DNA of 56,027 nt, counting the filler, from Sphacelaria rigidula (taxonomy: Eukaryota): the NCBI GenBank assembly GCA_964200075.2. It is 5 parts of 5 records of this genome, joined end to end, with 100 filler letters (N's around TTAATTAATTAA, not from the genome) between each part and the next. Parts side by side here need not be neighbours in the genome. Positions count along the whole stretch, not along the records: positions 1 to 11,127 come from CAXNAA020005350.1; 4 more parts are not named here. One strand, given 5' to 3'. Positions 1-44,924 of this stretch are shown here, piece by piece; the stretch's first letter is position 1, and every line of letters begins with the position of its first letter. A program made the position numbers and the translations under genes. The notes beneath the pieces are model-generated. The model made no database searches, was not told the DNA's origin, and saw only the letters and a program-made list of their open reading frames with translations.

Positions 1-1
1 A

Positions 2-65
2 CTTTCAGATGCATGATCCCTGAGCGAGCTGGGGTATCTTCATCTCGACGACAACCTGCTCACGG
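2..65 (+). pseudogene. Degenerate LRR exon relic upstream of the ROC exon
   Basis: Frame 2 reads LSDA*SLSELGYLHLDDNLLTG (LxxLxxLxLxxNxLxG). It has an in-frame TGA at 14-16, and the expected phase-1 donor reads G|GG instead of G|GT. Confidence 0.6.
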
Positions 66-271
66 GGATGTGAGGTTGTCTGGGCATCTTCGGCGGAGCA
101 CTCAGCATGATGGTCGGTCGTTTGACTTTTTTTTTTGCACGCTCTATTTATTCCCTAGGATCCTGTTAGGATCTGGGAACTGTTTACAGGCGGATAATAC
201 GACACAATGACTCAAGCCCTTTTATGCCCGACCTGATCCCACCGTTGCACTTCGGCCTGTACTCTCACCAG

Positions 272-3200
272 GGACCGGTGAAGCAGAATATGCATTGCGA
301 CTGATGGACAGACATTTCTGGCATATAATGAAGAACAACCCGTGGATCATGCCGCCGGAGGCCGTGGTGGAGGCGGGGCTCGAGGCCGTGAGAGCGTACC
401 TCGTGGACGTCCAAGCGGCCAAGAATGCCGGGGCTGATGTCACGTCCCTCAATCTTCTGAAAGTTGTCTTGGTGGGATCGGCTTCGGCTGGAAAGACTAG
501 GTGAGTCACTCTGCGAGACAAATGCCCGCTGGTACGCAGCTTGATATAACGGATGGATAGCTGCACAACTCCACTTTTTCTGAATGTATTAGAATATGGG
601 GGTACTCGATTTCATGACAAGACTGCGTAGGCAACGACTTGCGACATGTGCCAGTCCGGTTGCGGCCTGGTGCCACGGCGTGAAGATGGAGGCTGGCTGA
701 CGGAGATGTATCCCGTACAAAGATGGGCGCGGATGCGGAAATTTTGTTGCAGATACTTGGAGGAAGCACAGTGCTTTGACCACATGCTGGATGGGGTTTT
801 TCTTTGCGCTGTTGGGGACATTTCGTATACCACCACCATATCCCACGCTCGTGAAAGCACCGTCCCATCGCACCCCCCTCGTGTCGCCGTGTTGAACGGT
901 TGCAGTTTGATGCAAAGCATTATCGCGGGTTGTGGCTCCCCAACGATGGGGACAAAAGCAGATCCAAGTACAGTTGGGGTGGAACTACACCCTCACCAGC
1001 TCGAGGACACAGCAGTTGAGTTCTTTGACTGCGCTGGGCAGGTCGACTACGCCGGAATGCATCAGACATTTCTTACCCGACGAGCTGTGTACCTGCTCGT
1101 GGTGGATGTCACGAAGTTCACCGTGGGGATTCCCGATGAGGTGGGCTGACCGAATTCTGATGCGTGGTGGACCGTAATCTTTGATGCTCGTAATTCTCCT
1201 TGGATGGTGTCGTGACGTTATACTGCTGTTCCAAGTGTCACTGCAGACCTTTTAGATGAACGAATGTGCCACGTCCCAGACGCTTCAAGGTATCATATGA
1301 AGAACATGGGAACGCTTGGCCGAGGAAGGTAGACTTGGCGTGAAGACTAATGCCCGTCAAATACCTGTTGGTGCAGGTAATCCACGAAGACATCATGCGG
1401 TGGCTGTACTACCTATACCTTCGGGCGCCAGGGTCCACCGTGATCCTCGTGGCCAACAAGTGTGACGGCTCGGTCGATGATTTCGCCGACAAGGTGAAAA
1501 TGGTCCACATCAGGGTACGGGATCTGTTGGATGAATGGCACGAGAACCGTGGTCTTGGAGGCCAGTGCAAGGGCCGTGTGACGGACTTGAATATTCTTCC
1601 ACACATGAGTCGTGTGAGCTGCGACGACAAAGGCTCCCCGGAGGCTTCGGGTCTCCCCGTGCTGGTAGATCTGATTTTGAAGCAGGCTGCTACGTCCATC
1701 CGCGTGCCTCCCGCGTGGGACCTTGCACTCGGAATGATCAAGGACCTGAGAGCTAGTCGCGATCCAGTACGGGCTGCTCGGGAGAAGCTGGGGTTGTCGA
1801 ACACGCACTCGACCGACGGCATCGGGAATTCGCACGCTTCACCCTTCATCTCGAAGGACGAGCTTTCCCTACAGTGGAAACACGTCGTGGAAAATGTTCG
1901 AGGCGATGTACCGAAGGCGACTGTTTCTAACTGGGATAGTGCTCTCAACGGTGCACTATGGATAAGGTGTGTCCATTGTAGGTTGGTGGAGAACTGTTAG
2001 TTGTTTCCCAACCCAGACCGGAAGCCAGTTTTGGTGCAAGTAGCTTGATTGGAACGAGGTTTTCACCTTGAATTTTTTGTATTGTTTTCCTTTGCTCACA
2101 CATGTACCACGTCTGCTTTTCCGTCCACACAAACATGCCCTCTCCGCTCTATCCTGCTTTTGTCTGCTTTCGACTGCTGTCGTCTGCTTTTGTCTTCAGT
2201 GATTTCGCGGGGCACACACTCCGCATTGATGGTGGTGACGGCATCTTCCTGGACGTGCTATGGCTTTCGAAGGTCTTGAACCCTATCGTGAGCCACAAGT
2301 TGAGGAATAGACGGTTCGACCACGAGCGGCTGCCAATGAAACGGAAGCTGGTCGACGACAAGATTTTGCAACCCAAGTTCGCCCTTCACCTTTGGGACAT
2401 GGACACCGATCGTGTAACGCTGCGGCCGGAGGTCAAGAGAGCACTCTTTCGCACCCTCGTCAAGCTAGGTGTTGCTCTCCCCCTCGGGTGCTCAGCCTAC
2501 GGGGACAGCAATGAACCGGGAGATATGCTGGTTATCATGAGGCTCGAAGAAAAGTGCGATGGTGATAAGCAAAGGATGTTTGAACAAAGCCTTGCCGAAA
2601 ATAGGCAACCAGGTGACAGCGAAGTGACTCTAAAGTGGGAATTCGACAAGGCGGGCCCCCCGCAGGGGTTAGTAGAGCGGTTAATAGCCTCCTGCCATGT
2701 TCTCGGCGAGGTCGACGCGAAAGTGTGCTGGAGATATGGAGCTGCATTTAAATGTCGCCGCAAGGAAAGTAGTGCCGCAGGGAAACGTTCGTTATTCACG
2801 GTTGCCCTCAGCATGGCGAGCTACAACGGTCATGAGCTAGAGTTCACGGCGAGGGTGGTCGGGCCGCTTGAAAATGCGAGGGTCTGGGCAGCAATCCGCT
2901 ACGTGGCATCTGGCATGCTCACCTTGTCCAAGGAGTGGCCTGGAGTACTGTGGGAGGCATGGCCAGTGTGTACGGAGGCCCACGCCAAGAAAGTGTACCT
3001 GGCGTCGTCGGTACGAATATTCAGTGTCGCTATGACAGTTTGTGTTGTTATTCCCCGCTCTTCGGGTATAATACCGGAGATCAATTTACTCATCGTCGCA
3101 CTTGGACTGACCCTCACGCGGGGATCCCAACGGTGGTCACACCATGTATGTAGCCGAGGCAGTGAAATCTAAACACCCGCCGCAAAATTCAGGAGTGAAA

Positions 3201-4084
3201 GAAATACACGATGCAGAGTGAACTGTGGAAACGAGAAGGAACGAGAAAAACATGACGAGAAGGAGGAAATAACCAAGCATGTCCGCTCTCTGCCTTGTGT
3301 GATAACAACTCCCTTTTGCCTGGCGGGTGTTCGCAGGCCGAGCTCGGCGACCTCCTGCTTCCCGCTGCAGCCCCAGATGCGATAAGCGACGAGTGGTGCG
3401 AGTGCTTGCTGGAGTCGAGAGGTGTGCTCGCGCATGTTCGCGAAAAACTGGGCGTCGTAGTTGACACAAGAGAAGGTGTGGGCAAAGTTGGTGTTGGCTT
3501 GATTCGCTTTGAGTGTGGTATGGCAACGACGAAACAAATACAAAAGTGCTTTCTGATATGACGAAAGCGTATGTTTGTGTAAAACGGGTCCGTACGAATA
3601 TCGTCACCAACCACGCATCTCGTTCGCCGCTCATCTTTTTTTACTGTTCCGTGTGGCAGAAGTGACTGAAGTTCACTGCACGTTTCACCGAATGATCACA
3701 CCCCGCTTGCTGTCCTCAATAGATCCATTCGATGGCGAACAAGACGAGCCGGGGGAACCTCGAGAGGGCGATGGGACCGGTGCGACGAACACCTGCGCGG
3801 ACGAAGCGTTCGAACGATGGGTGCCGCACGCGTGGGATACCGCAAAAGGGCTCTTTGGCCTTGCCGTGACAGTGTTCTTGGGAGCAGTCGTGGTGGGCAT
3901 AGTGGAAGATGAGAATACGCTGTGGAAGACTTGTTTGGCGGTTATGGTTCTTCTGGTCGTATTGGCTGTATGCGCTGCAGCTATCTCGTGCAAATTCCCG
4001 AGCCGGCGAGAGGCTTGTGACGAGGAACGGCGAAGGGGAGGCCAGCAGGGAAGGTCCGAGAACGATGCTGCCGCCATGGCATGA
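272..4084 (+). CDS. ROCO-family LRR-GTPase (ROC-COR, C-terminal transmembrane hairpin), 5'-partial
   Basis: Spliced model with GT-AG introns: exons 272-500, 906-1140, 1377-1966, 2200-3010, 3337-3475, 3723-4084, phases consistent. LRR C-cap NNPWIMPPEAVV; G1 GSASAGKT|S (split by intron 501-905); G2 STVG; G3 DCAGQ; G4 NKCD; G5 VSC. COR motifs IFLDVLWLSKVL and PQGLVERLIASCH...WRYGA. Two hydrophobic helices in the last exon. The last two exons are less certain. Confidence 0.9.
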
Positions 4085-4284
4085 CCTCTGACGCCTCATT
4101 GAATGCACGGTACAGCTGTATGTTTCACTGGGAGCTATTTTTCTCAGTGCTTTCCGTTGTGCGGTCAAGTCATATGGCGATGCAGCCGCTGGGGCAAAAG
4201 TGCGCACTTAGTAGCCCATTTGGAATGGGAGGCGCAATCACAGCGAATTTGTAGTACTGGTTTGTAGGGACAGATTCGAGGGAC

Positions 4285-4527
4285 GGGTGATGGTGTGTGC
4301 GTTTACAGGAAGCGCACCCCGAATATGCCACTTTAGCAAATGCGTTCGGCTATAGTCAAGACGCCCTGGAACATGGCAGCGAAGAGTCACAACGTATGCT
4401 GCGCCGGGGTGATTGTGTGCACGCGTTCACAGAAAGCGCACCCCGAATGTTCCACTTTGGCAAATGCGTTCGACTATAGTCAGGACGCCCTGGAACATGG
4501 CAGCGATGAGTACACGTATGCTGCGCC
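4285..4527. repeat. Tandem duplication, about 122-bp unit, 2 copies
   Basis: gggtga...aagcgcaccccgaat...gcaaatgcgttcg...gacgccctggaacatggcagcga...acgtatgctgcgcc starts at 4285 and again at 4407. Confidence 0.85.
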
Positions 4528-5899
4528 CGATAGTATTCCTTTTGACACGCAACCAAGATTCGTGGAGTGCGTTCGGTGGAGCATGGCTGATGTAAATTCG
4601 ATAAACATGGAAGTATAAGACGTGGCATCATACATTGAAGTAGGGATAACTGTCACAGTCTGTGAAATGATGTAGTGTGTCGCGTAGAGGGTTCATCAGT
4701 GGACAGATGTGCCACAATTTGCACTCACCTTCTAGCACCTTGATTTTCACGTGCGAAAATCAATCATCAATCACGGCTGGTATACACCCGGCGAGGCGAA
4801 TGTGCGGTTTTTCAGTCTCCGGTGCGCAGTTTCTGTAGAGCATCTCTTTCAACATGTACTCCAAAATTTGAAGAATATATAAGTGATCCTTTGGTCCCTG
4901 TGTGAACAGGACTCCAGACGGTAGATCCACTTTGGGACTGATTTCTGCTTTACGCAACAGTGCCGATTATTGGCCCACTCGTTGTTACTACTTCGTGTAT
5001 ACACCAGTACGTGGCGAAGTGGTGGGAGAGGTCATACGCGAGGACTGATTCCAACACAAATAGGTCTCCCCTAGTTCAACCAGTCTCAAACGGATATATT
5101 GTGGCGCGGGTGGCCTTTTCTCGTGTAGATGTTTGTTTCTTGCTTTTTCCTGCGGACTACGGGTATATTGGTGGTATGGTCCTCGCACTCTGTGACCACG
5201 CGTTCGAGAGATCGAGCTAATGTGATTAATAAAATGATGATAATCATGATGATTAACTTCCAACATAGTACAACATAAGCTGTTCAAAACCTGTCCTCGC
5301 TTTGCCTAATTCCCAACATCAGGCATGGGAAAAAAATGGATAATTTCAAAACGGCCTCTGCGGTACAAATATCATACATTGGCGATATAGAATACATTAT
5401 GTGGGATTCGTCCAAAACTGAGATGAATCTTCGTTTTGCCCAATTTATGCGATTGTACACAACGAGAATCAAGGTCGAACGGTCGCTGCTCTTCATGTCC
5501 GATATACTGGATATTGGGCAATCATGAAACGTCGCGAGTGAAGGCTGGGTAAGTGGCCGTAGGTGGGTGTCGAAGCGACAAGTCCCGTGTCGTCAGGTGC
5601 TCGGGGCGCTGCATGGAAAAACCGGTAGTGAAAAGCATGACCGGATGGTCATCAAATTCCACCCACCAATCTCAACAACGGGGAGGACGATATCAAACCG
5701 AGAGGGGGATGAGCCACTGCCATCTGTCACAAAGTGCCCTGCTTGCGCAGTTGATCTAAGTGAGTCGAGGGGTACATAAGGATTGGGAATGACGAACCCC
5801 AACCCCCCACGACCCCTTTTTTGGGCTGATTTTTTGGACAAAAAAACGGGAAATTCTTCAGATGTTGCCACTGTGTGCCGCGTTCGTGTTCGGGACTTG

Positions 5900-7550
5900 G
5901 TCTTGATGTGCCAAACACCTTCGTGCGCTGGAAGGCGACACTAACAGTGTGTTCGCACGATGAAGAAACGTAAAGGGGGACAGCGGGGTAGGCGCCTCTT
6001 GGCAATATTGCGCTGACCCGATTCACTTTCGACAAACGCAGGAAAACGTTTTTTGCCGGGGATTTGTGCCACTTGATCGCAATATGTCTCGCACTCTCGT
6101 CCATGTTTCTCCGCGCCCGACTCAGCGTAATCATGACACAAGCCTTGGGCTTGTCGATTCTGGAGCAGGGCGCACTCTCGTCTGCGTTGTCCACAGCGAT
6201 GTGATCGTCCATACCATACTTGCAGACATGTACTGTGGCTGCACACAAAACTTACACAGCATGGGCAGGTTGGTGCAGGGAGTTGACCTGGTCGACATTT
6301 TCGCCGAAAAAAAAATCCAGTTGTACCTCCTCGACCCGCATGTGTGCCCTGGGCGCGCAACGGCAGTTGGACAGTACTGTTCCGATCTGGTCACGCTTGG
6401 TTGGAACCTGGACGGAAGACCGGTACTGTTTCAAGCAACGCTGAAAAGGACCCCACGCTAAATGGTGCACAAACGGTACTGGTGGATGTCCAGCTTGGGC
6501 ACGTGTTGTTGTTTGACCTCGCTCCAGCGTCTGTACAATCATCAACGGTTTTACAACGGTACACTGCGATGAAGTATTTCACCACCACAGTACTTTCAGA
6601 TAGTTGATGGCGAAACTGAATTCGAGTAATAAGCACGGACTTGACGCCCGGCGCCCAACCCCGCCGATTTTTTTTTATTTTGTGTTTTTCAACGTCTTGG
6701 GGTCTTCTTCATTATCATTCACGGTACCCGTGATGAATCGATACGGATTGTTTCGGAGTTCCGGAGCAACTTGTAGTCCGTCGAGCTGCTGCGGAGTTTT
6801 TCCACGCCTGGCACCAGTGACATGTAAAGCGCAGGTGTGGACAGAGAGACACCCGTACCTCTCGGAAAACAGCAACGGTCTGGCCGTGAAGTCCGGCACT
6901 GAGACACGCTTGGAGTAGCAACCCCTTGCGATATTTTGCTGTGTCACGTTCCTCGTGCGCCGCGCTAATTCCTACACGGAGGATCCCTGCCTGAAGGGGT
7001 TTCAAGGAACTACACCAGTCCTGCGCCAAAATTGAAAGAAGACAATCCACTACCGGCATGCCCGCATAGAAGTAGCATTTGCAGCGGCCCCGACACAATG
7101 GAGCATCGCCCCAGCACCGGTATCGCTCGCAAGCCTAGCACATGAAGTAATAATTTTCCGCGTGGGGTGGTATGAATTATGGTGCTCTTCGCTGGTGCAT
7201 GTCGTGCACAACGCAACGAATTCTATGAAAAAAAGGTTCAAGTCTGAAACATAACTTTTCCACCCTTTGAGCAGTGGTCCCCAAACACTTTTTTGTCGAG
7301 CTAATGCCCCTCGATCGCGTAGACACTTTTTCACGGTTGGGACGAATCATCGACTCCAAATCACCGAATTCCCGATTTTCGACCTGATTGCTCGTAAGGG
7401 AGAGGAAGGTTGATCGCTGGTACAAGGTGTATCCACGCAACCTTTGCACACCCTGGACAGTGGACACAATGATAGTTCTTTGCTGCAGCCACAGACACGG
7501 GGGAAAATCTACCGATATATATTTTTCGAACACAAGAAATGGTGAAAGAC
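5900..7550 (-). pseudogene. Decayed Cys/His-rich coding sequence, probably a DNA-transposon remnant
   Basis: Frameshifted minus-strand fragments: VSTVQGVQRLRGY, LSNCRC, STPCTNLPMLCKFC, then in a shifted frame VCKYGMDDH, suggesting a zinc-binding C-terminal module. No intact ORF, and no termini found. Confidence 0.3.
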
Positions 7551-8754
7551 TTCATTAATTAGCATTGCAAGGAATGAGGGATGTTGCAATAGTCGATTGA
7601 TAGCCTGTGGCAATTATTAAAAATGACGATCACTCGCCATCGATGGAAATGGTGTACCGCATACCGCATATGAACACCCGCCGTTATCAAATGGTATGGT
7701 AAGGCATCCATCAGTAGCGATTGCCTTCAACAGATCAAGTGAGTCATCCATCAGTAGCTATTACCGCCAACAAAAGATTCGGTGAGCCGTCTATCGGTCG
7801 CCTCTCCCGCCAAAAAATGCCAGTGCATCTTTTGGTATATACCGATATGGGCGTTGGTCAACAATCGATTGCTCTCCGGAGCACCCATCGATAGCCAGTG
7901 ACGCCAACGATCGGTTTTGAAAAACAGATTGCTCACTGCAGTGGTCTCATGATACCAACGGCAACACGCAACGACCTGAAGCGAACTCTGGCCATGGTTT
8001 CTGTGGAATGAGGCGAAAACACACCCAAGAATGTGCGTACATGGCGTCAGTGATCGACGCCATTCAGCTACCCTTGTGGTCAACAATAAATAATGAAGGC
8101 CGCAATTTCAAATTGCATCTCCACGAGCGATATACATTGGCGGGCGCGATTCAGACTCTATCGTGGACCTAAATAGACACTGTGCGCAATGAGTATCCCA
8201 ATGTGACCACCAAAATGTATTGGTGACATAAATTCAGAGCCTTTTGCAACAAATTGAATGTACGGTAGACAACTTGACCCTTATATTCTCACGGCCGCGT
8301 GGTAACTATCATGTCCCCTGTCCCGAATCTTGTTCGTATACAAGCTCTCGATAGGCTTTGATGCCAGTGGATGATGACGGACAAGAAATATTGAAGCTCG
8401 AATTTTTGGGGGTCATTGCGGCGCCGATTTCCTATTACATAGTCCATTGTCCAGGGTAAAAGCAAATCTCATCCACTCACAACAGTATTGTAAGCACTCA
8501 TGTCTATGAGAGGGACAACCATGAATATCAACACCTCGCTAACAACAATAGCTGCAAACTTTTGCCTACACATGTTGCGGCTTCCTACAAAATACTACCG
8601 TTCCACAGTCGTAGAAAGGTGGGCGAAAATATTCACATATCGTACCACTGTATACCCATTGCATGTTTACCTGCGGCTTCTCTACCATACCTTGACGGAG
8701 TATAATATTCATTATGCACCACGGTTGATTCTGGTATGTATCTATCGTTAGTCA

Positions 8755-9007
8755 TTGCCGCCACGCATAGGATTATACGCAATCCATCAAAATTTATTGC
8801 CGTCATCAAAAGATGTGGTTTGCAATCTGTCAGGAGCCATCGTCGTCATGAGTAGGTTTTACACGCGTTCTGTCGATAGCCGTTGCCGCCATGCATAGAT
8901 TTTTACGCAATCCATCAAAAACTATTGCCGTCATCGAAAGATTTGGTATGCGATCTGTCAAGAGCAATCGTCATGGGTAAATTCCACACGCGTTCTGTCG
9001 ATAGCCA
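8755..9007. repeat. Tandem repeat, about 128-bp unit, 2 copies
   Basis: ttgccgcca(c/t)gcatag...acgcaatccatcaaaa...attgccgtcatc(a/g)aaagat...acacgcgttctgtcgatagcc occurs twice. Confidence 0.8.
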
Positions 9008-10766
9008 TGGCCGTCACCAATAGATTTCAAAAGCCATCGATCGACGCATTTAGTCGGCCGCAAAAGATTTCGGTGTTGGGCGATAGCAGACTGCTGCCCA
9101 GACACAAGTGTGGGAAACTGGTCTATCGATAGACAAAACAATAGGAATATATACCTGCCGACCGATGGCTATTAGAGATGGCAGTATTGGCATTTATTGC
9201 AGCGGATTCCGCCTATTATCCAGGGTGTGAACTTTTGCACCCTTCTAAGCGTCTGGGCTGCGTGTACATAGATGGCAACGCTGGAATGGAGCCTAGGGAT
9301 CGATTCGTCACGAGTCATCTCATTATACTAGAACCAAGTGAATCCCAGACGGATCAAAATTTGTCCGACCCTTGTATTCTTTTCAGCGTATTTTACCGAA
9401 CCAGTGAGCTTACAGCCCTGACCACAACTGCTGTTTTCCATGATATCCCCCCACACACCACACACTCCCCACCCCCTACCCCCCATATAATTGAGTGGAA
9501 ACGGCGGTTTCGTTCAGCGATCGAGGATTAGACCGAGGCGAGGAGGGCGCGATCCGGCTAGTACACGACGAAATCAATCCGTCATTATTTTCAAGTCCAT
9601 TTTTCTCCTCAAGACAGTATATGGTCGAAACAGTGACAATCACTTTTCACGAGTGTCGGTGTATCCACCCGTCGTCAATGGGAGGAGAAATGAGTATTGC
9701 TTGATGATTCCCTCCTTCTAAGTATTTCCGATTGTAATGATTCGGGTGTAACGATGAGACTGGAGATATTTCTGCCAGGCGGGCGGGTGGTGTCTCAACA
9801 ACTGACTATTTCGTCTCTGTTTTTCAGTGATGAACAGGGGATGGAAATGAAGCGAGGAGAGTGGCCGATATATTAGAGACCTCCCTTTCTCATCCCTAAT
9901 ACTAATCGAATTTACCCCCAACCAATTTTTATTAATCATAAACCTTTTTGGGACCGCATCCCCACTAACACAGGGTTAACCCCGTCTTGGTGGAATGATC
10001 AAAAATATGTCTTGAAGCGACCTACCTAAACACAGTAGGGCGAAAGTCATCGACGAGAGCGGAACGACCAGCACGAGGATTATTGTCGGATGTGATTCCA
10101 CTGCAAATATCGTGTGGGGCCCTATCCCTGGCCCAGATGAGCTTTCCCAGTTTTCCAAATGCAGGGTGGTTGCAGCTTGCATTTATGGTATTACTTGCAC
10201 TCGGTGTACCGCTCCCGAGTTTTTCCAGAGCTTTTTTTGGGTCCCAGATCTATACTAAAACGTAAGTATTTACGCGAACACAGGGTGGGCCATTTTCACG
10301 AGGCATGAAATCCAGGGGGGCTGTGGAGAGACAGAAGGAGCTACCGTCATGGATTCTGCGCATCCCTATGCCGATGACTTGCAGTTTGCAGTCAACGTGT
10401 ACGTAGCGGGCGGGGATGAGAAAGCGGTATAAAGGCAGCTAGTATCGGTAGCTGAGAATTACCCGAAACGTGCGAGGTAGTATGCAGCGGCAGCTGCTGC
10501 TTCACTTGGAGAGGCGTACTACAGTGTACTGTACTATTCTGTTGTATGTATGCGCACCGCAGCGCTGATACCCTTCGAAGAGAATTTTCCACACGCAACA
10601 AACGGGGCGAGGCGGCGCGCCCCGACCACAAAGGGCTGTATGACGAGGTGATGAGGACAAAGGGCGGCCCGCCGGTCGGGTATCTTGTTGGAAGCTTGTT
10701 ACTTGAAATGTACGATATAGCAGACATGATGCGATATGATCCACGCTCCTTTCGCCCAACATGCAG

Positions 10767-10838
10767 GCGAAATACCGTCGTCGCTGAATCAGCTAAAGAA
10801 CCTGCAGGAGCTTTCTCTCAGCGACAACCAGCTCAGCG
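10767..10838 (+). CDS. LRR exon 1 of a second LRR/ROCO-type gene (one 24-aa repeat per exon)
   Basis: tgcag|GC...AGC G|gtaagt; exactly 72 nt, phase 1-1; GEIPSSLNQLKNLQELSLSDNQLS(G). Confidence 0.92.
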
Positions 10839-11030
10839 GTAAGTCTCTTAAACGCGTCCTAGTGTGCGTAAGCAGGGCCGATAGCCGGACTCCCTCTGAT
10901 GGTGCCAGTCCGGGTCCCGTTGATGTCCTGCGGCACTGTGTTCCGTCCACGTGCGGGCGAAACACAGTTGTAGAAACGATATAGCAGACATGATGCGATA
11001 TGATCCACGCTCCCTTTGCCAAACATGCAG

Positions 11031-11102
11031 GCGAGATACCGTCGTCGCTGGGACAGCTGGAGAACCTGCAGCATCTTTTCCTCAACGACAACCAGCTCAG
11101 CG
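11031..11102 (+). CDS. LRR exon 2 of the same array (gene truncated by contig end)
   Basis: tgcag|GC...AGC G|gtgagt; 72 nt, phase 1-1; GEIPSSLGQLENLQHLFLNDNQLS(G); 264 bp after exon 1. Confidence 0.92.
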
Positions 11103-11127
11103 GTGAGTCTCTCAAACGCGTCCTAGT

Positions 11128-11227
11128 NNNNNNNNNNNNNNNNNNNNNNNNNNNNNNNNNNNNNNNNNNNNTTAATTAATTAANNNNNNNNNNNNNNNNN
11201 NNNNNNNNNNNNNNNNNNNNNNNNNNN
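11128..11227. other. Artificial contig linker
   Basis: N44-TTAATTAATTAA-N44; stop codons in all six frames. Confidence 0.97.
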
Positions 11228-11275
11228 AGAGAAGAAAAAAATGCGTACCTCCCCCCCCCCCCCCCCCCTCTTCCC

Positions 11276-11349
11276 GCTCCGTCTCAAAAGGGACGCATGA
11301 TCAATGGTCAAACGACGAAGGCAAGCAACAGATGAGTATGCCCCCCCCC
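11276..11349 (+). repeat. Short interspersed repeat family A (about 75-bp core ending in poly-C); at least 8 copies in the window
   Basis: Consensus GCTCCGTCTCGAAAGGGATGCGTGGTCAATGGTCAAACGACTAAGGCAAGCAAGAAATGAGTACGCCCCC. Other copies at about 12938-13005(-), 15667-15737(+), 16905-16978(-), 22230-22310(+), 33749-33824(-), 34203-34278(-), and partial 37862-37888(-). Confidence 0.85.
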
Positions 11350-11397
11350 TTCCCTCGACCCCGTCTCCATCGACTGCTCATGTCGCCAACAACACAG

Positions 11398-11952
11398 GAG
11401 TTGTACGAAGCTCTCGAGGCACCGCTGCTCAGCGTGGAAGAGCGGCTGGACGTTCTGCTCCATCTCAAATGGACCGTGAGCGCCTTTGACTGCAGGCTGA
11501 CCCGCGATATCACCGAACTCGTTGACAGGTACGGTGTACCGTGCTACGAGATGACCAGCCGCCCTTCGGCTGCGTTTCACGGTCGACCACCCCATGTGCC
11601 CCCCCCTACCCCATCCCCTCTGCCCCCCCCCCTCTGTTGACCAACCCACGTCGTTGCGTGACGACAATCCACAAGAACAAATTTCACCAGATTTCTCGCT
11701 GAAGCATGAAATCCCCCAATATAAGTCCGCACGCGTTGCTTTTCCTCCCTTTTTCAACCCCTCCCCTTCCTCGAGACGAGTTCGTGGTCTCAGGGGACCA
11801 ATCCACCGCTCCCCCGGTACACGCCTCCCATGTCGGTGTAAATTCGGATTGAACCCAGCACCCCCGGACTGCGTCAACTCTCCTCACAACAAACTTCCCT
11901 TGCTACTCACGCTCTCACGTCTTCAACGACATAAATCATGTTGATATTCCTG

Positions 11953-12006
<54 letters not shown>

Positions 12007-12605
12007 TGCATCTGCCGGAATTCGAAACTCCATCATTTTTGTATCTACCTGCTCTCAGTGGTACCAATTGGATCACAGGGGGGCGCGATGGCCCTCATTG
12101 TACAGTACAAAACTCCTTCCTTGCAGGCCTGCTGTTTTCTGTGATCATCAGACGGGAAAACTCTGCTTTCGACTTTCAACATCGCTGAGAAACATATGTG
12201 CTTCTTATTATTCCAGACGCGCCGAACGTCACCCTCCCCACCCCGTCCCACCGACCGTAATCACCTACTACACATCATTACACATGCCGCGTGGGTGCTG
12301 CGCAGCACTCTATATACACCCTAGTGGGTACCTAATCGCTACAAGTTCACCGACCCCAACATGACCACACACGCATACATGCATACATGCATCATAAAAC
12401 ACACAGGGAGGCGGACTTGCTGAGTCGAGGGAGGGGCGAGGCAAGCCTCCGACCGCTGCGTCAGAGGATCCGCAACCTGTTCTTGCGGTTCACGGAGACG
12501 CCTGACTTCAACCCGGAAGCCACGCGTTTCTTGCGCGTGCCGCCCAAGTACGCAAAGCTCACGGAACAGGGGGCGGCGGAACTCACCACCGTTTCTTCTT
12601 GTTGA
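11398..12605 (+). CDS. IQUB: IQ and ubiquitin-like domain-containing protein (flagellar radial-spoke protein), last two exons
   Basis: Exons 11398-11528 and 12407-12605 (GT-AG, phase 2) give ERLDVLLHLKWTVSAFDCRLTRDITELVDR|EADLLSRG...LRQRIRNLFLRFTETPDFNPEATRFLRVP, matching the conserved IQUB C-terminus. Confidence 0.88.
11955..12004. repeat. (CA)n microsatellite in the IQUB intron
   Basis: About 25 perfect CA units. Confidence 0.95.
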
Positions 12606-12715
12606 TGACCTTCCGTAGTTTCCATCATAGTATTTTTTTTTTCCCAAAAGTGAATGCTCACTGCACTGCACTGATCGAAATTGACGTGAAATGATATGTA
12701 GCACCTTGACAACAG

Positions 12716-12717
12716 CG

Positions 12718-12760
<43 letters not shown>

Positions 12761-12762
12761 AC
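12716..12762. repeat. (CAA)n microsatellite
   Basis: About 14 CAA units downstream of the IQUB stop. Confidence 0.9.
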
Positions 12763-13050
12763 AAGCATTTCGAACTACAGTACCCGTCTGAGAACGCATC
12801 CAGAACGCACTTAACATAATTTTGCGGGGGTGGGGGGGGGTGGGGGGGGTGAATCTGCAATGTTTTGTGTGTGCACGCCTTTGCATGCGTGCTTTGCCAA
12901 AAACTAGAGTTTGCGGATGCCGTCGGAGAGAGGGGAGGGGTGTACTCATTTGTTGTTGCCTCAAGTCATTTGGCCATTGGCCATGCATCCTTTTCGAGAC
13001 GGAGCTCGGGGGGAAGGAGGCTGGGTGTCTTGAGCTTCTCTGCTATGAGG

Positions 13051-13277
13051 GAGTGATGCTACGGTAGGGTTGCAATTTTTGAGCGGAAATGTTTCTCGGG
13101 GTGTTACAGGGATCATTTCAAGACTGAAAATGATGCCGATTCACGAAAAGGCCCCCGTGTGCATCTCCATGTCCTGTCCCCGGAGATTTGAGTTGCACAG
13201 TAAGCCCCATATATTTGGGCTCCTACAAGAAACGATACCCAGAAACAAAAAGTGCAACCCCTATCGTGGCATTGCTC
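13051..13277. mobile_element. MITE with GAG...CTC termini and 4-bp TSD (Sola2-like)
   Basis: TIR GAGTGATGCTACGGTAGGGTTGCA / TGCAACCCCTATCGTGGCATTGCTC; flanked by GAGG at 13047-13050 and 13278-13281. Confidence 0.75.
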
Positions 13278-14139
13278 GAGGATGGTTGGCCATGAGGATT
13301 ATTGGCCATGAGGATTGTTGGCCATTGTTGCCGCAGTGCCGAAGGTATTCAAGGATGATGCCCATTCTCGTCGTATTTCCTCGGACAAGGTGATGCTCAG
13401 ACTGCTTGTGTTCTCATGCGCAAGTGGTCCAAAGGGGGCTCCTTAGACGAGAGATAACTCTCTTGACCCCGCTCAAGTGCCAACTTCGACTATTGGGCAC
13501 CCCATAGGTCGCCAAAGAGCACATCTTGGTATATTTTAACTGATGAATGTGTGTGTCGATATGTCGATACTGCCACTTAGGCGGGGGGGGGGGGCGGGGT
13601 GGAAGTCAACCAACCCCACCATAGTACATGAATGTGCGACCGTACCTTGAGCGGCTATTTGTCAATGATACCTCCCAAAATCAAACCAGTTTGTCATCGT
13701 TTCTTGAGGCGAGAGTACAAACATAGTAGTTCGTACTTCCTCTGCGCCACAAGCAACGTCCGTTGTAGGGTGAAGATCGTACCTCACCAGCGGAGGTGCT
13801 CACGGTACTATAACTAGGTTTGTTGTTGTAAATATACGGTTATGGATATGCCCATTGAAAAAAGATATAAACATAGTCATGCTGAGAAATTTTAGCACGA
13901 ACTAGCCCATGTTTTGAATTTTTTGCAGATTTTTGTTTTCGTAGAATTATTCATTTTGTTTTAGAATCTTGATCTTTAATCGCCCATTACCCACCAAAAA
14001 AAACGATGGACTCTCCCGTGCAAACCTCTCCACGTCTTAAACGGAGAGGGCACCAGCAATCCTGCCAGGCAACTCAAGGGTGCCAAAGGACATTCTAGGA
14101 GGAGCGTTCTTGGCTCTATGGGCTTATCGAGCCACGCAA

Positions 14140-15157
14140 AGCGTGTGCTACGGTAGGGGTGCACAAATATTTTTTGAGGTTCGAAATATTAGAAGCCGGC
14201 TTTCTCACCCAAAAACACGACTAATGAAATATGAGAGAGCACACTGCGAGTAGGATTCCAGTGAGCTAGAGATACACGGAATTAATGTTCAAACGGCGAT
14301 GTCCTGATCCATATTCTTGTAAATCTCCCAATTCTAGACCATCTTCTATTATAGCAACAAATTCTCGATTTGTACAAATATGAGGATTTTCAGTCTACAG
14401 GCGATTTTCTTCCGTGGATTGATTTTTCGGACCCCAGTCCGTTGGGCAATATTTTTCGGTTAGCTCTGAGAAAACTCGATCAATCCTCCGATTCTCTCGA
14501 CGTTCACCTTCGGTCTATCACCTTCCTGCTCAAATCAGGACACTCCCGCATGACGCTTTATACGATGCCCCCCCCCCCGCCCCCCCTCGCCCGCTAAACC
14601 AGCCAAAAACTGTCACGAAGAAAATGGTCACACTGTACAGCGCCTGATGTTTGGTTCCAGGCTGGATGAAGCGCCTCATATAAGCGACATTGGCGGCATC
14701 GAACCCGAGCGTGGGAATGCCCAGCTGCTCGTTGTGCTCGGCTTTCTTCATTTCGATTTGAGTGTAAACTTTGCCGCCCCAAACCAGCCACTTTTTCGTG
14801 TAAATCTTGCTATTATCGTAGAAAGTGTTGCATCCCCCCCGATTTTCTCCCGATTAAAAGAAAAATCAGAGGAGATGCAGGAGTGTCCCGATTTGAGCTG
14901 GAAGGTGATGTATCGCAAGTCAACGTCCAGAGAACCGGAGAGTTGATCTGGTTCTCCCACAGCTAGCCGGAAAACATTGCCCAACGGACTGGAGCCCGAA
15001 AAATCAATCCACGGCAGAAAATCGCCTGTAGACGGACCGAAATCCCCACACTTGTACAAATCGAGATTCGTTGCCATAAAAGATGATCTTAGAATAGAAG
15101 CTCCTGAGTGAGAAAGATCTGGGGCCCGAATGTACAACGCCTACCGTAGCATGACTA
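14140..15157. mobile_element. About 1-kb non-autonomous element of the same TIR family, with a long internal inverted repeat
   Basis: Ends TGCTACGGTAGGGGTGCACA / TGTACAACGCCTACCGTAGCATGAC. Internal arms at about 14330-14550 and 14875-15095 are reverse complements. TSD not recognisable. Confidence 0.65.
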
Positions 15158-16246
15158 CGGTGTTGGTCCAGAGTACCCAACAAAACTGTGGAAAAACTGC
15201 AAAGCTCAGACAAACAAAGCCGGGGAGCTCCACTGTTGAAACGGACGTCGGAGTGACCGACCGTCGCTTCTTACCCCAACAAAGGCCGCGGCGCGCCGGA
15301 CGGTCAACAAGCAAAATCGGTCATTTTCTCACTCTCGGCCCCCCGGAAAGAAATATGTGTACCAGTAGTCGAGTGGAGGAGAGAGTAGATGCACATAATT
15401 ACCCCTGTGGCAAAACCATAGAGAGTAGAACGCATATAGTGGCAGAATGTTGTGAACTATACAAGGAGAAACGGGACGTGTTAGAGTGGGAAATGTGGGA
15501 AGTGAGCAAATGTGGCATGAAATCCATTTGAATCGTGGGGGACAAAAACGAGAAAGTGATCGCATCACTGGGAGATAGATGATGACCACAGACGCGCAAG
15601 AGGAAGGGGATAAGATATGTAAAAAGCTTTTGTGTAATGTAGGACTCGACTAGGAGTAGATACGGCGCTCCGCCTCGAAAGGGTTGCGCGGTCAATGGTC
15701 AAACGACTGAGGCAAGCAACCAGTGAGTACGCCCCTCCGGAAAAGGGACGAAATATTGTTGGGTCGAATGACCTTTTCTCGGCCGTTCGCCAAAGCAGGG
15801 TAATGAACGAGAGGACTAAGAGCACATAACGCAAGAAACACCAAAATATTTCAAAGGTACTATCCCCTACGGCATCGGACATCTTAAAGCGCCTGTGTAA
15901 GCAGGACCCACTGTACATGTGGTGCATCAAAAGTATGAAAGTTTCTGATCTTTTTTTGTCACACGCACAAACTGTGCGACAGCCGTTTTACATATATTCA
16001 TCCTGTAAAGGGGGGGAGGGGGGAAGGTTAACGTTGATCAATCCCATCACCATGACGTGTGTTGAGCGACTATTCTTCAACCCAACATGCATAAAATCAA
16101 AATCAAACAAGTGAAATAGTATTTTTTTGAGGCAAGAATACAGACAAATCTCGATTCATACGAAGTGTGTAATTCAAGGGAAAAGGCTGGGCAGGATTGG
16201 TCGGAGGGGGCATCATCGGTCGATCAACTTACCACACCCAAGGTTC

Positions 16247-16486
16247 CACACGTTGGACAAATCATGATCCATCTGAAAATCACTTCCTCTCAGTATACCG
16301 ATCCGAATCATGATCCAGATCATTTGCCCCCCCCTTTTCCATGTTTTTTTCCGTCCAGCGCCGGACGCCGGGCACGCCGAGTCGCGCAAAGGTTGCGCTT
16401 TGGCTGTTCTGACTCCGCGGTGAAATATATCCAACAGTCTTATTTCATTAGTCATTTCACATGGATCATGATTTGTCCGACGTGTG
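16247..16486. mobile_element. 240-bp MITE with 8-bp TSD
   Basis: TIR CACACGTTGGACAAATCATGATCCAT / ATGGATCATGATTTGTCCGACGTGTG; flanks CAAGGTTC / CAAGATTC (7/8). Confidence 0.8.
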
Positions 16487-17493
16487 CAAGATTCTTCTTG
16501 CATATCTCGCAGCAAGTCGTTCAATACGCAGCAATGCTCAGCAATCCTTCAAAAGGAATGCTCCAAGACAGAAGACGCGCGCTGAAAATACAAAAAAACT
16601 ACAAAGTGCGTTGTGCTTGTTGAGGGCTTCGGGTTGCCTGTCTACAATTCCTCTCGAAGGCCTACGGTGCTCTCCATCAACGAAAAACAAATATTAGTTG
16701 GACGAAGTCAACACTGGCGGTTGTTGTTGTCATTGCTGTGGTTCTTGTTATTGTCTTGTCATTAAAAAGACGTTCCAATATTAGCGTAGTACTTCTCTTG
16801 TATTCCCGTACTGGGCATCTGATGCGGAGACCCTCCATGGTCACAGGCTGACAACCCAAAACATGGCGTAAGTAAATAAAGATAATAAAATCGGACCTAG
16901 AACGGGGGGGGGGGGTACTCATTTCTTGCTTGCCTTCGTCGTTTGACCATTGACCACGCACCCCTTTCGAGACGGAGCAAGGGGGGCAGGGGGGGTAGCA
17001 ATAACAATACATCTATCGGCTTCCCTAGTATCACCAAGTAAAAAAACTCGTAGATGGAAGACGAAATCAGGTTGCACCGTTCACGTCGTCCATGTATCTT
17101 CACCCTGACATGGATGACGCTGAATCTCGTGCCGTTTTCCGGGGGCAAGGGCAACACACCCTCGTGGCTTCCAATTGGGCTTCTTTTTTTCTCGTTAAAG
17201 TTGACAAAACAAAATACGAACCCTGATGAGTTGGCAGCCCCCAAGCCTCCTCCCAACCACATAACCACGGCGAGCAACACCGAGAAACGTGCAATGAAAA
17301 ATGCCCCCCCCATCCCCCAAAGGAAAGCAACATAATCTCGCATTCCGCACAAGCAAGTGCGTGCACGCTCCATCGCGCAATTTCTGCTGATCTTTCATGA
17401 GGCGACAACTGAATGGCGTTCACACAAGAGTAGTATACAACCAAGCAATACAGTACAAACATCTCCTTCAACGAACATTCATACAAAAAAGAC

Positions 17494-19329
17494 CTATATC
17501 CGGCCGTCCGAGGACGCCTCCGCCAGGATCTTCAGCACTCGGCGAGGCAACACGCCGCTGGCAACGAACGCATTCCCGGCGGCTCCCCCGGGAGAAGCCT
17601 CGATCGCTCGCGCGCACTCCAAGCACCATTGCCATATCGCCCCTTCCTCATAACTCGCTTCCTCGTCCTCGAACCCGCCCCTCCCTCCGATCAGCCCCAA
17701 TCCCGGCGCCGCGCTCAGCGAGCCCAACGCTTCGTCGACGGCGCGCACCATCGCCGCCCAAACAGTCTCCGCATCACCACCGCTGGCAGCGGCGCCACCG
17801 TCGCCCCATCGGGCCCTGCGGGCGGCGAGATCACGTGCCGGCGCTAACCCGTTCTCTGGGCTCGAAGCACGCGCAACCGTCATCACCACCAGAGTGGCGT
17901 GGGCGGCGAGAAGCCGCCCGCGGGGACCGCCTCGCGTGGGCCTCCGTCGAGCGGCGCCGGCCAACCCCGCGACCTCCGCAAGCGACGCCAAACACTCCCC
18001 CAGCGTCGGATGCGCCAGCACGGGATACGACGGTGGTGGCCGTCCCCCGGTGGCACGCCATGATGCCGCCGCCTCCGCATCACTGATAGGCTCTGGCCAC
18101 GCTAGGTGACCCGCCGAGGTAAGAATATTGGTCAGCAAGCTGCAGGCGGTTATGAGGGGCGACCGCAAGGCCTCGGCGGCCTGCTCCACGAACTCGGGGG
18201 GCAACGAAGAAGGACCGTCGGCTGACGTTTGTCCCGCCGCCGCCGCCGCCGCCGGTACTGCGTCGGCGAAGAGAGACAGGAGAGCGGCAATCGCGGGTGC
18301 TCCCGCGGCGGCCACGTTACAGATTCGCGCCGTCACCCCTTCCTCGACCATCGCCGCGAGCGGCGCGGGCTCGTACGACAACGCTAGCATCGCGCGGAGG
18401 ATGTTGTGTAACGCCTCGTCGACCGCCGTCGCCGTTGCCACTTGCGCGCCGTCCCCGCTGGTAGTTTTAGCCTGCTGGTGGATGCTATCATCGTCGGCGT
18501 CGCGCATAGACAACGCAGCAAGCTGGCCGCCGACTCCCGGGAATGCGCGAAGGGCGGCGGTGGCGGAGGAGGGAGGGGGGGACGCCGTCGACGGCGGTGA
18601 AAAATAGGGAGTGCTGTCGTTCTCTAGCTCGCCGTCACTGTCCTCATCGTCGGAGTCGGGTGGCTGCAAGGTAACACAGTCGGACATTAAAGGTCGGGAA
18701 GGGAGGTGCGATGTCAGCGATGGTGGGGTAAGAGAGGTGAGGATTTCAACCAGAGCCATGTGAATAAAGCTGAAGAGAGCCATATTCTGTAGGGCGGCGG
18801 CTGTCGTACACCGAATAACTGCAACTTTGAGCTTTCTCCGCGTAAATACGTCGCCATACGGATGTATGCTGACCACGATCACCTCCTCAGAATAACAACT
18901 GGCGGTTGGTTGCCCAGATAAGAGACTCCATAAAATAGCCAGTCCCTGACAAAGCCGGCCGTTCAGGGAAAGGAAGCCAGTTCATAGTGGATCAGCTAGG
19001 CGATGGTTATTCAGTCTCTAAGGCGAAACGTAAAACAAAACACCCGACAAAACTCCAAGCATAATCCCCACCTCAGGTCTCGCGTTGAGCGCCAACAACG
19101 TCGGTAGAGCCTCCAAGAATCTCTGCGGCAGCGACTCAGGATCTTCGGCCATCCACACACCGAGAGCCCGCGAGCACTCCAGTCCCAGGCGGCGCAGCCT
19201 CCACAGGTCCAACGGAGACGGCGCGGCGGCAAGTGCCGCCGTGCTCTTGGCACCGCCCACGTCCGGCAACATACATGGTCGGAGCTCTGATATGAAATCC
19301 AACACACAGCCGAAAAGGCTGACCAACGT
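17494..19329 (-). CDS. Neurochondrin-like helical-repeat protein, last two exons (5'-partial)
   Basis: Exons 19329-19072 and 18663-17494 (GT-AG, phase 0, TAG stop); GC-rich coding composition. RALGVWMAEDPESLPQRFLEALPTLL resembles the neurochondrin motif R.LGAWLAEE...L....LPFL. The gene is well supported; the family call is moderate. Confidence 0.65.
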
Positions 19330-19495
19330 CTGCGTGCACGCATAGCCCCGTGAGGAAGGAGAGGAGGGGGGAGGGAGAGGAGATTTTCAATGGTACGGAG
19401 TGGGGGAGGGAGCGGCGGAGTAAGCCTTTGCTACGTCGAACGGACTGGACATTTTAAGACTCAGCCTAGTTCTCAAAACAGAATCGACAATTAAA

Positions 19496-21481: not shown

Positions 21482-22084
21482 CAAGTAAACCTTTGGAGGT
21501 GTCGTTGTACATCTATTGGACTGTGTCAAATCGGTTCATGTACGAGATGGTGCGACAACCCAACTTCAGAGTGGTAAAAAGCCGAGTCATCGCAGCGCTC
21601 CCTTAAGTACCTGGGCGCCAAATCCTCTCCGATGCACCCTACGTTGACTGCTGGAAATATGTGGAAATTACCGTTATGGCACAACAAAATGCATGAGCCA
21701 CGACTCAGGGACCATGGTATACGGCATATTGTCTTGGAGAACGATACTCGCATACAGAGATGAGTAGCTCATCTGTAGCGTCGGGGTTATACCGGCATTG
21801 AAGTCAAGCTGGTGACAAGTGTGCCGGAAACGAGTCCAGCGGCCAAGCTGAACACATTCTGTAATTCATTGCAATCTATACCGGCGGCTGAACCAGCATT
21901 AAGTTATGAAGAAAAACGAGACGGGAGTATCGTCGTGTCCATCATGCGCAAGACCTTGTACACCGAAGCCAAGTGGCAGAGACCGGCCTTTTTTTTTTTT
22001 CACGTCTTAGATTCCTAGGCTGGTTTGCTCTGCCCTTTCTGTTTCTTCTTTTTCTTCAGCGAGTGTTTCCGCTTTGTTTTTTCT

Positions 22085-22180
22085 TGGGTACGTCTATCAT
22101 GTGACCACGGCTCGATCCCTGGGGGTCAGTTAAAGTGTGACAATCAATCAATCGAATCAACCAATCAAATCAATCAACAT
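22085..22180 (+). repeat. Interspersed repeat family B with (CAAT)n tail (LINE/SINE 3' end-like)
   Basis: gggtacgtctatcatgtg...gaccac...tccctg(g/t)gg(g/a)tcagt...gacaatcaatcaatc; also at about 39330-39420(-) and 42174-42250(+). Confidence 0.7.
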
Positions 22181-42961: not shown

Positions 42962-42996
<35 letters not shown>

Positions 42997-44903: not shown

Positions 44904-44924
44904 GGATTAGTATGCATGACTTGA

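What the first reader, a model, noticed from the sequence alone, without database searches (positions are those of the whole stretch)
10712..11127. LRR exon cassettes: hypervariable 72-nt exons inside conserved intron flanks
Seen: two phase-1/phase-1 exons, each exactly one 24-aa LRR, 264 bp apart. By hand count the exons differ at 11 of 72 nt, 9 of them in codons that change the residue (N/G, K/E, E/H, S/F, S/N); the last three changes fall on exposed x positions of LxxLxLxxN. The comparable intron flanks differ at only about 5 of 80 nt. Homology stops about 55 nt upstream of exon 1, defining a cassette edge. Established: brown algal ROCO genes are reported to diversify by LRR exon shuffling and alternative splicing and are candidate immune receptors. 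Inference: the conserved flanks act as recombination or conversion handles for interchangeable, frame-preserving specificity modules. Whether rearrangement is programmed or somatic is the open question. Only two units are visible, so the statistics are weak.
Basis: partly seen in the sequence, partly recalled or inferred. Interest (0 to 1): 0.78.

Follow-up and report, generated by a model that had tools for sequence, protein, structure and literature searches.

The report
Brown-algal LRR exon repeats, already described
These are two tandem copies of the one-repeat-per-exon LRR module already described in brown-algal ROCO candidate immune receptor genes, and the claimed contrast between variable exons and conserved intron flanks is not statistically supported here.

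Summary
Two 72-nt AG/GT-bounded, phase-1 exons (10767-10838, 11031-11102) sit in a 264-nt tandem unit. They differ at 11 of 72 nt, against 5 of 80 nt in the flanks.

It is the published "type I LRR exon" of brown-algal ROCO and LRR genes (Zambounis 2012). Three of the five residue changes fall on sites 15, 17 and 19, the sites that paper reports as positively selected. A Roc-COR-TM ROCO gene lies upstream at 272-4081, 81% identical to a Sphacelaria protein. Contigs from public runs cross exon-exon junctions at exactly the predicted borders.

The exon-versus-flank contrast is not significant (Fisher p=0.11; pN/pS 0.7). In the only multi-unit array I could fetch (L011, nine exons), introns diverge like synonymous sites. 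Only six x positions there show excess replacement.

The "cassette edge" is the left end of the tandem array, 34-52 nt from a truncated high-copy repeat. Only two units are visible because the window is a composite and its first piece ends at 11127.

Nothing here bears on programmed or somatic rearrangement. Verdict: a new member of a known kind, low interest.

The parts
10712..10975 (+). Tandem unit 1 (264 nt): 55 nt of upstream intron, exon 1, and 137 nt of downstream intron.
   Evidence: Direct repeat D1 with spacing 264; in-register comparison.
10767..10838 (+). LRR exon 1: 72 nt, AG/GT borders, phase 1-1, one 24-residue plant-specific-type LRR.
   Evidence: It matches the type I consensus quoted. 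In one search, contig loose ends at 10839 run on into the start of another LRR exon (X3, 2 records) or into a Roc-linker-like exon (X5, 2 records).
10839..11030 (+). 192-nt intron between the two exons. Only its first 25 and last 55 nt can be compared between units.
   Evidence: At sites 10841-10933, 1-18 distinct contigs per run carry a shared variant letter (table 3), so the intron belongs to a multi-copy family.
10976..11127 (+). Tandem unit 2, cut after 25 nt of its downstream intron by the end of window piece 1.
11031..11102 (+). LRR exon 2: 72 nt, AG/GT borders, phase 1-1.
   Evidence: In one search, the joint 'goes back 72' (11101 to 11030) appears in X3 (3 contigs) and X5 (1 contig). 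Loose ends before 11030 (11 and 6 records) end in the close of a preceding LRR exon. Loose ends behind 11107 (11 and 8 records) read into the next LRR exon.
11128..11227 (.). Artificial linker between window pieces (44 N, a 12-nt spacer, 44 N). It is not part of the genome.
   Evidence: The same structure recurs at 22355, 33580 and 44804.
9941..10678 (.). Diverged, truncated copy of a high-copy interspersed repeat (transposon-like, no coding hit), ending 34-52 nt before the array.
   Evidence: There are 20-91 distinct X1 contigs per variant site within 10097-10594, nearly all carrying a letter other than the window's. Loose ends before 9941 disagree with each other (agreement 0.38), as expected of diverse flanks. 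Loose ends behind 10660/10661 agree (0.70-0.86), so the family consensus continues where the window copy stops. No Pfam, tRNA or Rfam match.
272..4081 (+). Upstream ROCO gene: linker exon, Roc GTPase, COR, and a C-terminal stretch with two hydrophobic segments. Exons are about 272-504, 904-1143, 1365-1964, 2177-3031, 3307/3340-3480 and 3722-4081.
   Evidence: tblastn with nine brown-algal ROCO proteins; Pfam Roc E=5.8e-6; best named relative Sphacelaria rigidula at 81%.
1..68 (+). Degenerate LRR-like remnant (…LSELGYLHLDDNLLTG) with an in-frame stop and no canonical donor. It is probably the tail of the upstream gene's LRR array, or an inactivated exon.

Best explanation
This is the 5' end of an array of type I LRR exons of a brown-algal LRR gene, probably a second ROCO gene in tandem with the one at 272-4081. 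Each 72-nt exon encodes one complete 24-residue LRR and is flanked by phase-1 introns, so any number or order of exons keeps the reading frame.

The 264-nt unit of exon plus intron was duplicated in tandem, most likely by unequal crossing-over or replication slippage between similar introns in the germ line. That step is inferred. The copies then diverged.

Three of the five residue changes lie on the concave beta-strand positions 15, 17 and 19, which are known to be under diversifying selection in this family. The similarity of the intron flanks is what recent duplication within a multi-copy intron family would give. It makes further unequal recombination possible in a passive sense. Nothing shows that the flanks are dedicated recombination signals.

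Shown: the exon structure, the tandem repeat, LRR identity, the ROCO neighbour, splice junctions at family level, and the multi-copy intron. Inferred: the mode of duplication, selection acting on this pair, and that the array belongs to a ROCO gene.
For: The exon and repeat anatomy and all counts come. The exons fit the published type I consensus of a 72-nt exon per LRR (section 15 of PMC3341825). The published positively selected sites are 15, 17, 19 and, more weakly, 20. The corresponding sites in 23-residue numbering are 14, 16, 18 and 19 in Saccharina.

In 42 repeats that I extracted from six brown-algal ROCO proteins, entropy is highest at positions 15, 17, 19 and 20, at 3.2-3.6 bits.

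The upstream gene is a ROCO. Its relatives are brown-algal proteins: Sphacelaria 81%, Ectocarpus sp. 54%, Pylaiella 50%, and an Ectocarpus siliculosus 'LRR-GTPase of the ROCO family' 47%. Zambounis reports that 56% of ROCO loci lie in clusters.

laid 2104, 397, 289 and 2216 contigs of four runs at 85% likeness or more. It shows exon-exon junctions at 10838/10839, 11030/11031 and 11102/11103, and one LRR exon joined to a Roc-linker-like exon. It also shows tandem 'goes back' joints (10940 to 10716; 10964 to 10737 in three runs). All five flank differences are private to one unit, while the other contigs carry the other unit's letter (10841, 10849, 11014, 11017, 11021).
Against: The gene to which the two exons belong is not visible. 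No LRRNT-like first exon was found in 4000-10766; the best + strand tblastn hits have E=0.44 and 2.3. The downstream part is cut off at 11127. The exons could therefore belong to a non-ROCO LRR gene, or be an orphan or inactivated fragment beside a transposon-like repeat.

The junction-crossing contigs were laid at 85% likeness or more and may come from paralogues. No listed run is on record as RNA.

Exon divergence (0.153 overall, pS 0.20) is nominally higher than flank divergence (0.0625). If that holds with more units, plain neutral divergence after duplication would not explain it.
Confidence: 0.8

Rival explanations
1. The intron flanks are kept alike, by gene conversion or unequal crossing-over (concerted evolution) or by constraint on splicing signals, while selection diversifies the exon. 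The flanks would then serve as germ-line homology handles for exchanging cassettes within and between arrays.
For: Flank divergence is 5/80, against 11/72 for the exon and pS 0.20. The five flank differences are all private to one unit against a shared family letter carried by 1-12 contigs per run. Zambounis traces intra- and intergenic recombination inside LRR domains.
Against: The contrast is not significant: p=0.11 by nucleotide, p=0.55 by event, and p=0.14 for synonymous sites against intron. Contigs had to be at least 85% alike, so their agreement is partly by construction. In L011, introns (0.287 gapped; 15-nt flanks 0.24-0.26) diverge like synonymous sites (0.309).
Confidence: 0.2
2. 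There is programmed or somatic rearrangement of LRR cassettes, with the conserved flanks acting as recombination signals, as in vertebrate or lamprey antigen receptor assembly.
For: The hypothesis is in print (section 27 of PMC3341825). The modules preserve the reading frame. Variant joints among contigs of public runs exist, for example 10630 to 10960 in X1 and X5.
Against: Nothing in the sequence requires it. The variant joints come from contigs at 85% likeness or more and are what paralogous germ-line copies would give. The 2024 paper states that somatic recombinant ROCO loci, site-specific recombinases and clonal immune cells have not been reported, and it prefers alternative splicing. Zambounis found no RAG1 or RAG2.
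Confidence: 0.03
3. Transposon-mediated capture or transduction. The cassettes were carried to, or duplicated at, this place together with the adjacent high-copy repeat.
For: A truncated high-copy repeat ends 34-52 nt before the array. A second, different junction between that repeat and the cassette intron (10630 to 10960) is seen in one contig each of X1 and X5. In Tetrahymena, LRR exon/intron units associate with a LINE-like element.
Against: An abundant repeat will land in or near introns by chance. No target-site duplication, terminal repeat or coding capacity was found. Zambounis's initial observations did not support transposon involvement.
Confidence: 0.08
4. The two exons are an orphan or inactivated array fragment (a 'reservoir' LRR locus or pseudogene), not part of an expressed ROCO gene.
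For: No start or LRRNT exon was found upstream, and a transposon-like repeat abuts the array. Zambounis reports that at least half of ROCO loci are disrupted and that many non-ROCO loci carry type I exons.
Against: Both exons are intact, with canonical splice sites. The rest of the locus is simply not in the window.
Confidence: 0.2

Closest known systems
Type I LRR exons of Ectocarpus ROCO and other LRR genes (Zambounis et al. 2012, PMC3341825; I read the abstract, sections 12, 15, 22 and 27, and passages)
   Same: A 72-nt exon encodes each 24-residue LRR, with consensus GxxPxxLxxxxxLxxLxLxxNxLx and a repetitive intron-exon structure. ROCO genes occur in clusters. Variation falls at sites 15, 17 and 19. 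One group of these proteins has a C-terminus with one or two transmembrane segments, as does the upstream gene here.
   Different: This is another brown alga; the nearest named protein is from Sphacelaria at 81%. No reverse-strand or intronic LRR remnants are seen in the 192-nt intron.
ROCO genes of four brown algae (Front Plant Sci 2024, PMC11378527; I read the abstract, section 11 and passages)
   Same: 72-bp LRR exons, positive selection on the concave face, and exon-skipping isoforms proposed as the source of diversity.
   Different: That paper calls the exons 'phase 2', which I take to be the GFF sense of two bases completing a codon. Isoforms could not be examined here.
Tetrahymena 90-bp LRR exon arrays (PLoS Biol 2019, PMC6564038; passages only)
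   Same: Tandem intragenic repeat units of exon plus intron are detectable at nucleotide level. Exon length and intron phase are uniform. The arrays are associated with a repeated element, and unequal crossing-over is proposed as the mechanism.
   Different: Those exons are 90 bp with phase-2 introns, and three exons contribute to one 30-residue repeat. It is a ciliate lineage with an unrelated sequence family.
Lamprey VLR assembly from LRR cassettes
   Same: Interchangeable LRR modules form a diversity store for candidate immune receptors.
   Different: VLR cassettes are copied somatically into an incomplete germ-line gene. Here the modules are ordinary spliced exons, and no somatic step is shown.

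Membership tests
Brown-algal type I LRR exon (Zambounis 2012) | Each LRR is encoded by one 72-nt exon. | tested here: met
   10767-10838 and 11031-11102 are both 72 nt between AG and GT.
Brown-algal type I LRR exon (Zambounis 2012) | Exon register GxxPxxLxxxxxLxxLxLxxNxLx. | tested here: met
   Both translations fit at every fixed position (against the consensus).
Brown-algal type I LRR exon (Zambounis 2012) | Symmetrical intron phase, so that exons can be added, lost or skipped in frame. | tested here: met
   The codon is split after its first base at both ends. Contigs join exon to exon with a 72-nt period.
Brown-algal type I LRR exon (Zambounis 2012) | Variation is concentrated on concave-face sites 15, 17, 19 and 20. 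| tested here: inconclusive
   Three of five replacements fall on those sites (p=0.018 over all 24 positions, 0.12 over 13 variable ones). Only one pair is available, and pN/pS is 0.7.
Brown-algal type I LRR exon (Zambounis 2012) | The organism is a brown alga. | tested here: met
   All named relatives of the neighbouring gene are Phaeophyceae.
ROCO protein (LRR-Roc-COR), for the gene that owns the two exons | Roc GTPase and COR domains lie downstream of the LRR array in the same gene. | not testable with these tools
   The window piece ends at 11127 and no genome is held. There is indirect support only: a contig with an exon-1-like LRR exon reads on into a Roc-linker-like exon (X5 loose end at 10839).
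ROCO protein (LRR-Roc-COR), for the upstream gene at 272-4081 | Roc domain followed by COR. | tested here: met
   Pfam Roc scores 27 bits at a cut-off of 27, E=5.8e-6. tblastn aligns six exon blocks collinearly with ROCO proteins. Pfam COR was not hit, and the 2024 paper notes the same failure of InterProScan for brown algae.
ROCO protein (LRR-Roc-COR), for the upstream gene at 272-4081 | An N-terminal LRR array. | tested here: inconclusive
   Only a degenerate LRR remnant at 1-68 is inside the window. The array would lie before the window start.
Programmed antigen-receptor-type rearrangement (V(D)J or VLR-like) | Somatic variants of cassette order or number within one individual. | not testable with these tools
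   Only assembled contigs of public runs were available, and they cannot separate paralogues from somatic variants.
Programmed antigen-receptor-type rearrangement (V(D)J or VLR-like) | A dedicated recombinase or deaminase and defined signal sequences. | not tested
   No genome is held. The literature reports none.

The most novel reading that the evidence does not exclude
The intron of this cassette family is held nearly constant across many copies, while the exon's ligand-facing codons are replaced. On this reading the flanks act as signals for programmed, possibly somatic, exchange of LRR cassettes. That would be a third, independently evolved way of assembling receptor diversity, after V(D)J and lamprey VLR.
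Probability: 0.03. Interest if true: 0.9.

Novelty: new member of a known kind. Interest (0 to 1): 0.22.

Why it matters
If the exon-versus-intron contrast held up across a whole genome, it would give a concrete, testable handle on the long-standing question raised in 2012: are brown-algal LRR arrays remodelled by a targeted mechanism, or only by ordinary unequal recombination and selection? As it stands, the locus is a clean textbook example of a published architecture in another brown alga. It adds nothing new on mechanism. The practical lesson is that the test needs all cassettes of the family, collected independently of the flank. The neutral yardstick should be synonymous sites, not the exon as a whole.

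Tried and rejected
- **Flank search in collections:** a 23-nt part of the flank gave 0 hits in metagenome contigs, viral contigs and genome contigs.
- **Exon-end-plus-donor pattern in metagenome contigs:** it returned 20 loci. Eighteen are chance matches in unrelated sequence. Only L011 (nine exons plus one degenerate copy) and L018 (one exon) are real type I-like exons. Their organism is unknown, and their introns look unrelated to the window's (not aligned against it).
- **Open frame through cassette 1 (10736-10984) as a protein query:** it found no relatives among 5.8 billion clusters. In the 1.84 billion representatives, the best-scoring stretch of nearly all of the 150 listed hits covers only about query residues 2-40, the exon part. 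A few rows reach residues 46-65, and none reaches the last third of the query. These are ordinary long LRR proteins, so nothing was learned about the intron.
- **Sequencing runs:** no RNA holder is listed. All laid runs are contigs, so depth along the stretch cannot be used to compare exon and intron conservation. I do not use the lower summed depth over the variable half of exon 1 as evidence. Table 3 printed only 40 of 121 variant sites, none in the exons, so a per-site exon/intron comparison from that call was not possible.
- **First (LRRNT) exon upstream:** nothing convincing was found.
- **Nature of the high-copy repeat:** Rfam, tRNA and Pfam scans of 9000-11127 and of ORFs in 3716-10817 explain nothing about it. 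An inverted-repeat scan found only a 20-nt palindrome.
- **Earlier findings of this scan:** none by place, sequence or words.
- **Chance and assembly artefact, considered and rejected:** the repeat is exact over 37 nt twice, and independent contigs show the same tandem arrangement.

Full report
**What is there.** The window is a composite. It has five pieces of about 11.1 kb (1-11127, 11228-22354, 22455-33579, 33680-44803, 44904-56027), joined by linkers of 44 N, a 12-nt spacer and 44 N. The finding lies at the very end of piece 1.

The repeat finder reports one direct repeat, 10712-10863 and 10976-11127, 152 nt at 89% identity with spacing 264.

Within each copy there is a 72-nt segment, 10767-10838 and 11031-11102. 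Each is preceded by AG and followed by GT. Read with the last base of the preceding exon, each gives one 24-residue LRR of the plant-specific type.

The exons differ at 11 of 72 nt. Nine of those lie in five replaced codons (8 N/G, 11 K/E, 15 E/H, 17 S/F, 19 S/N) and two are synonymous. The flanks differ at 3 of 55 and 2 of 25 nt. Only two units are visible because the piece ends at 11127, and piece 2 does not continue the unit.

**Surroundings.** Upstream on the same strand lies a ROCO gene. tblastn with nine brown-algal ROCO proteins aligns collinear blocks at about 272-504, 904-1143, 1365-1964, 2177-3031, 3307/3340-3480 and 3722-4081. Pfam finds Roc (E=5.8e-6). The last block carries two hydrophobic segments, as in one of the two Ectocarpus ROCO groups.

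The named relatives of its COR region are all brown algae. These are Sphacelaria rigidula 81%, Ectocarpus sp. 54%, Pylaiella 50%, an Ectocarpus siliculosus 'LRR-GTPase of the ROCO family' 47%, Ascophyllum and Scytosiphon. A degenerate LRR remnant sits at 1-68.

Between this gene and the cassettes I found no recognisable domain and no LRRNT-like first exon.

**Public sequencing runs.** I laid contigs of four coded runs at 85% likeness or more: 2104, 397, 289 and 2216 contigs.

First, 9941-10678 is a diverged copy of a high-copy interspersed repeat.
- There are 20-91 distinct X1 contigs per variant site, nearly all carrying a letter other than the window's.
- Loose ends before 9941 disagree with each other.
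- Loose ends behind 10660/10661 agree with each other, so the family consensus runs on where the window copy stops.

The copy is therefore truncated 34-52 nt before the array begins. The sequence at 10400-10711 has no similarity to the unique intron part 10864-10975. The 'cassette edge' is thus the left end of the tandem array, lying beside a truncated repeat.

Second, contigs of X3 and X5 cross exon-exon junctions at exactly the predicted borders.
- A 'goes back 72' joint runs from 11101 to 11030 (3 contigs and 1 contig).
- Loose ends before 11030 (11 and 6 records) end with the close of a preceding LRR exon.
- Loose ends behind 11107 (11 and 8 records) and behind 10839 (2 records in X3) read into the start of the next LRR exon.
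- In X5, two records read from 10839 into a sequence resembling the Roc-linker exon at about 277-300.

These contigs may come from paralogues, and no run is on record as RNA. They therefore confirm the splice borders and the ROCO link for the family, not for this locus.

Third, the intron is multi-copy. At each of the five flank sites where the two units differ, the other contigs carry the letter of the other unit. Other joints (10940 to 10716; 10964 to 10737 in three runs) show the same tandem arrangement elsewhere.

**Is the exon hypervariable relative to the flanks?** For this pair, no.
- 11/72 against 5/80 gives Fisher p=0.11 two-sided and 0.06 one-sided.
- Counted as changed codons, 7 events against 5 gives p=0.55.
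- Nei-Gojobori gives pS 0.20 and pN 0.139, a ratio of 0.7.
- Differences are spread evenly over the two exon halves, 6/39 and 5/33.

The placement of replacements is suggestive. Three of five fall on sites 15, 17 and 19. That gives p=0.018 over all 24 positions, but 0.12 if only the 13 variable positions are eligible.

**An independent array.** I could not reach more copies of this family (see Tried and rejected). The one multi-unit array I obtained is a metagenome contig, L011, from an unidentified eukaryote. It has nine type I-like exons and introns of 59-253 nt.

In L011 the mean pairwise differences are:
- exons 0.229 (first 39 nt 0.142, last 33 nt 0.332);
- 15-nt flanks 0.263 and 0.244;
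- six of the eight introns, those of 82-114 nt, aligned with gaps, 0.287;
- synonymous sites 0.309.

pN/pS is 1.90 at positions 14, 15, 17, 19, 20 and 22, and 0.19 elsewhere. In that array, then, introns behave neutrally, the structural residues are constrained, and only the x positions are in excess.

**Comparison with what is known.** Zambounis et al. 2012 describe exactly this. Each LRR of Ectocarpus ROCO proteins is encoded by a 72-nt 'type I' exon with the consensus met here. ROCO loci are clustered and rapidly born and lost. Recombination is traceable inside LRR domains. Sites 15, 17 and 19, and more weakly 20, are under positive selection. The paper also proposes targeted somatic recombination.

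The 2024 paper extends the structure to four brown algae. It finds the same selected sites, notes that no somatic recombinant locus or recombinase has been reported, and favours alternative splicing.

In 42 repeats taken from six brown-algal ROCO proteins fetched here, positions 15, 17, 19 and 20 have the highest entropy.

Tetrahymena offers an analogous case of exon-plus-intron repeat units associated with a repeated element.

In the sections and passages I read, I saw no explicit comparison of intron and exon conservation.

**Verdict.** The structure is a new member, in another brown alga, of a published kind.

The most likely mechanism is germ-line tandem duplication of an exon-plus-intron unit, followed by divergence that includes the known ligand-facing sites. 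It is not supported by the one larger array available.

Noticed in passing
window 11128-11227, 22355-22454, 33580-33679, 44804-44903: The window is a composite of five pieces of about 11.1 kb, joined by identical linkers of 44 N, a 12-nt all-frame stop spacer and 44 N. Features must not be read across these joins.
   Followed up: yes
window 9941-10678: A diverged, 3'-truncated copy of a very abundant interspersed repeat with internal deletion variants in other copies. It has no coding, tRNA or Rfam match. A second, different junction of this repeat with the cassette intron (10630 to 10960) occurs in contigs of two runs.
   Followed up: partly
window 1-68: An LRR-like remnant with an in-frame stop and no canonical donor, just upstream of the Roc-linker exon of the ROCO gene. 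It is possibly an inactivated LRR exon of the kind Zambounis describes.
   Followed up: partly
window 8741-9027: Two to three imperfect direct repeats of about 104-128 nt (82-85% identity) in the intergenic stretch. They are unexplained.
   Followed up: no
window 30143-31132 (+), 32433-33578 (-), 46059-46652 (+): Retroelement remnants in other pieces: an endonuclease/exonuclease/phosphatase domain (E=1.2e-9), a copia-type reverse transcriptase RVT_2 (E=6.8e-66), and an RT-associated RNase H (E=9.8e-13).
   Followed up: no
window 34989-36302 (-): An open frame with fibronectin type III domains (E=1.2e-20).
   Followed up: no
window 42898-42994 and 23020-23157: A 97-nt G-rich homopolymer-like run next to a 10-N gap, and a CAG/CAA-rich repeat of period 9-27 nt inside an open frame.
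   Followed up: no
L011 847-865 (within the 253-nt intron at 696-948): A degenerate LRR copy lacking an AG acceptor at the expected place sits inside the longest intron of the metagenome array. It resembles the 'inactivated intronic LRRs' reported for Ectocarpus.
   Followed up: partly
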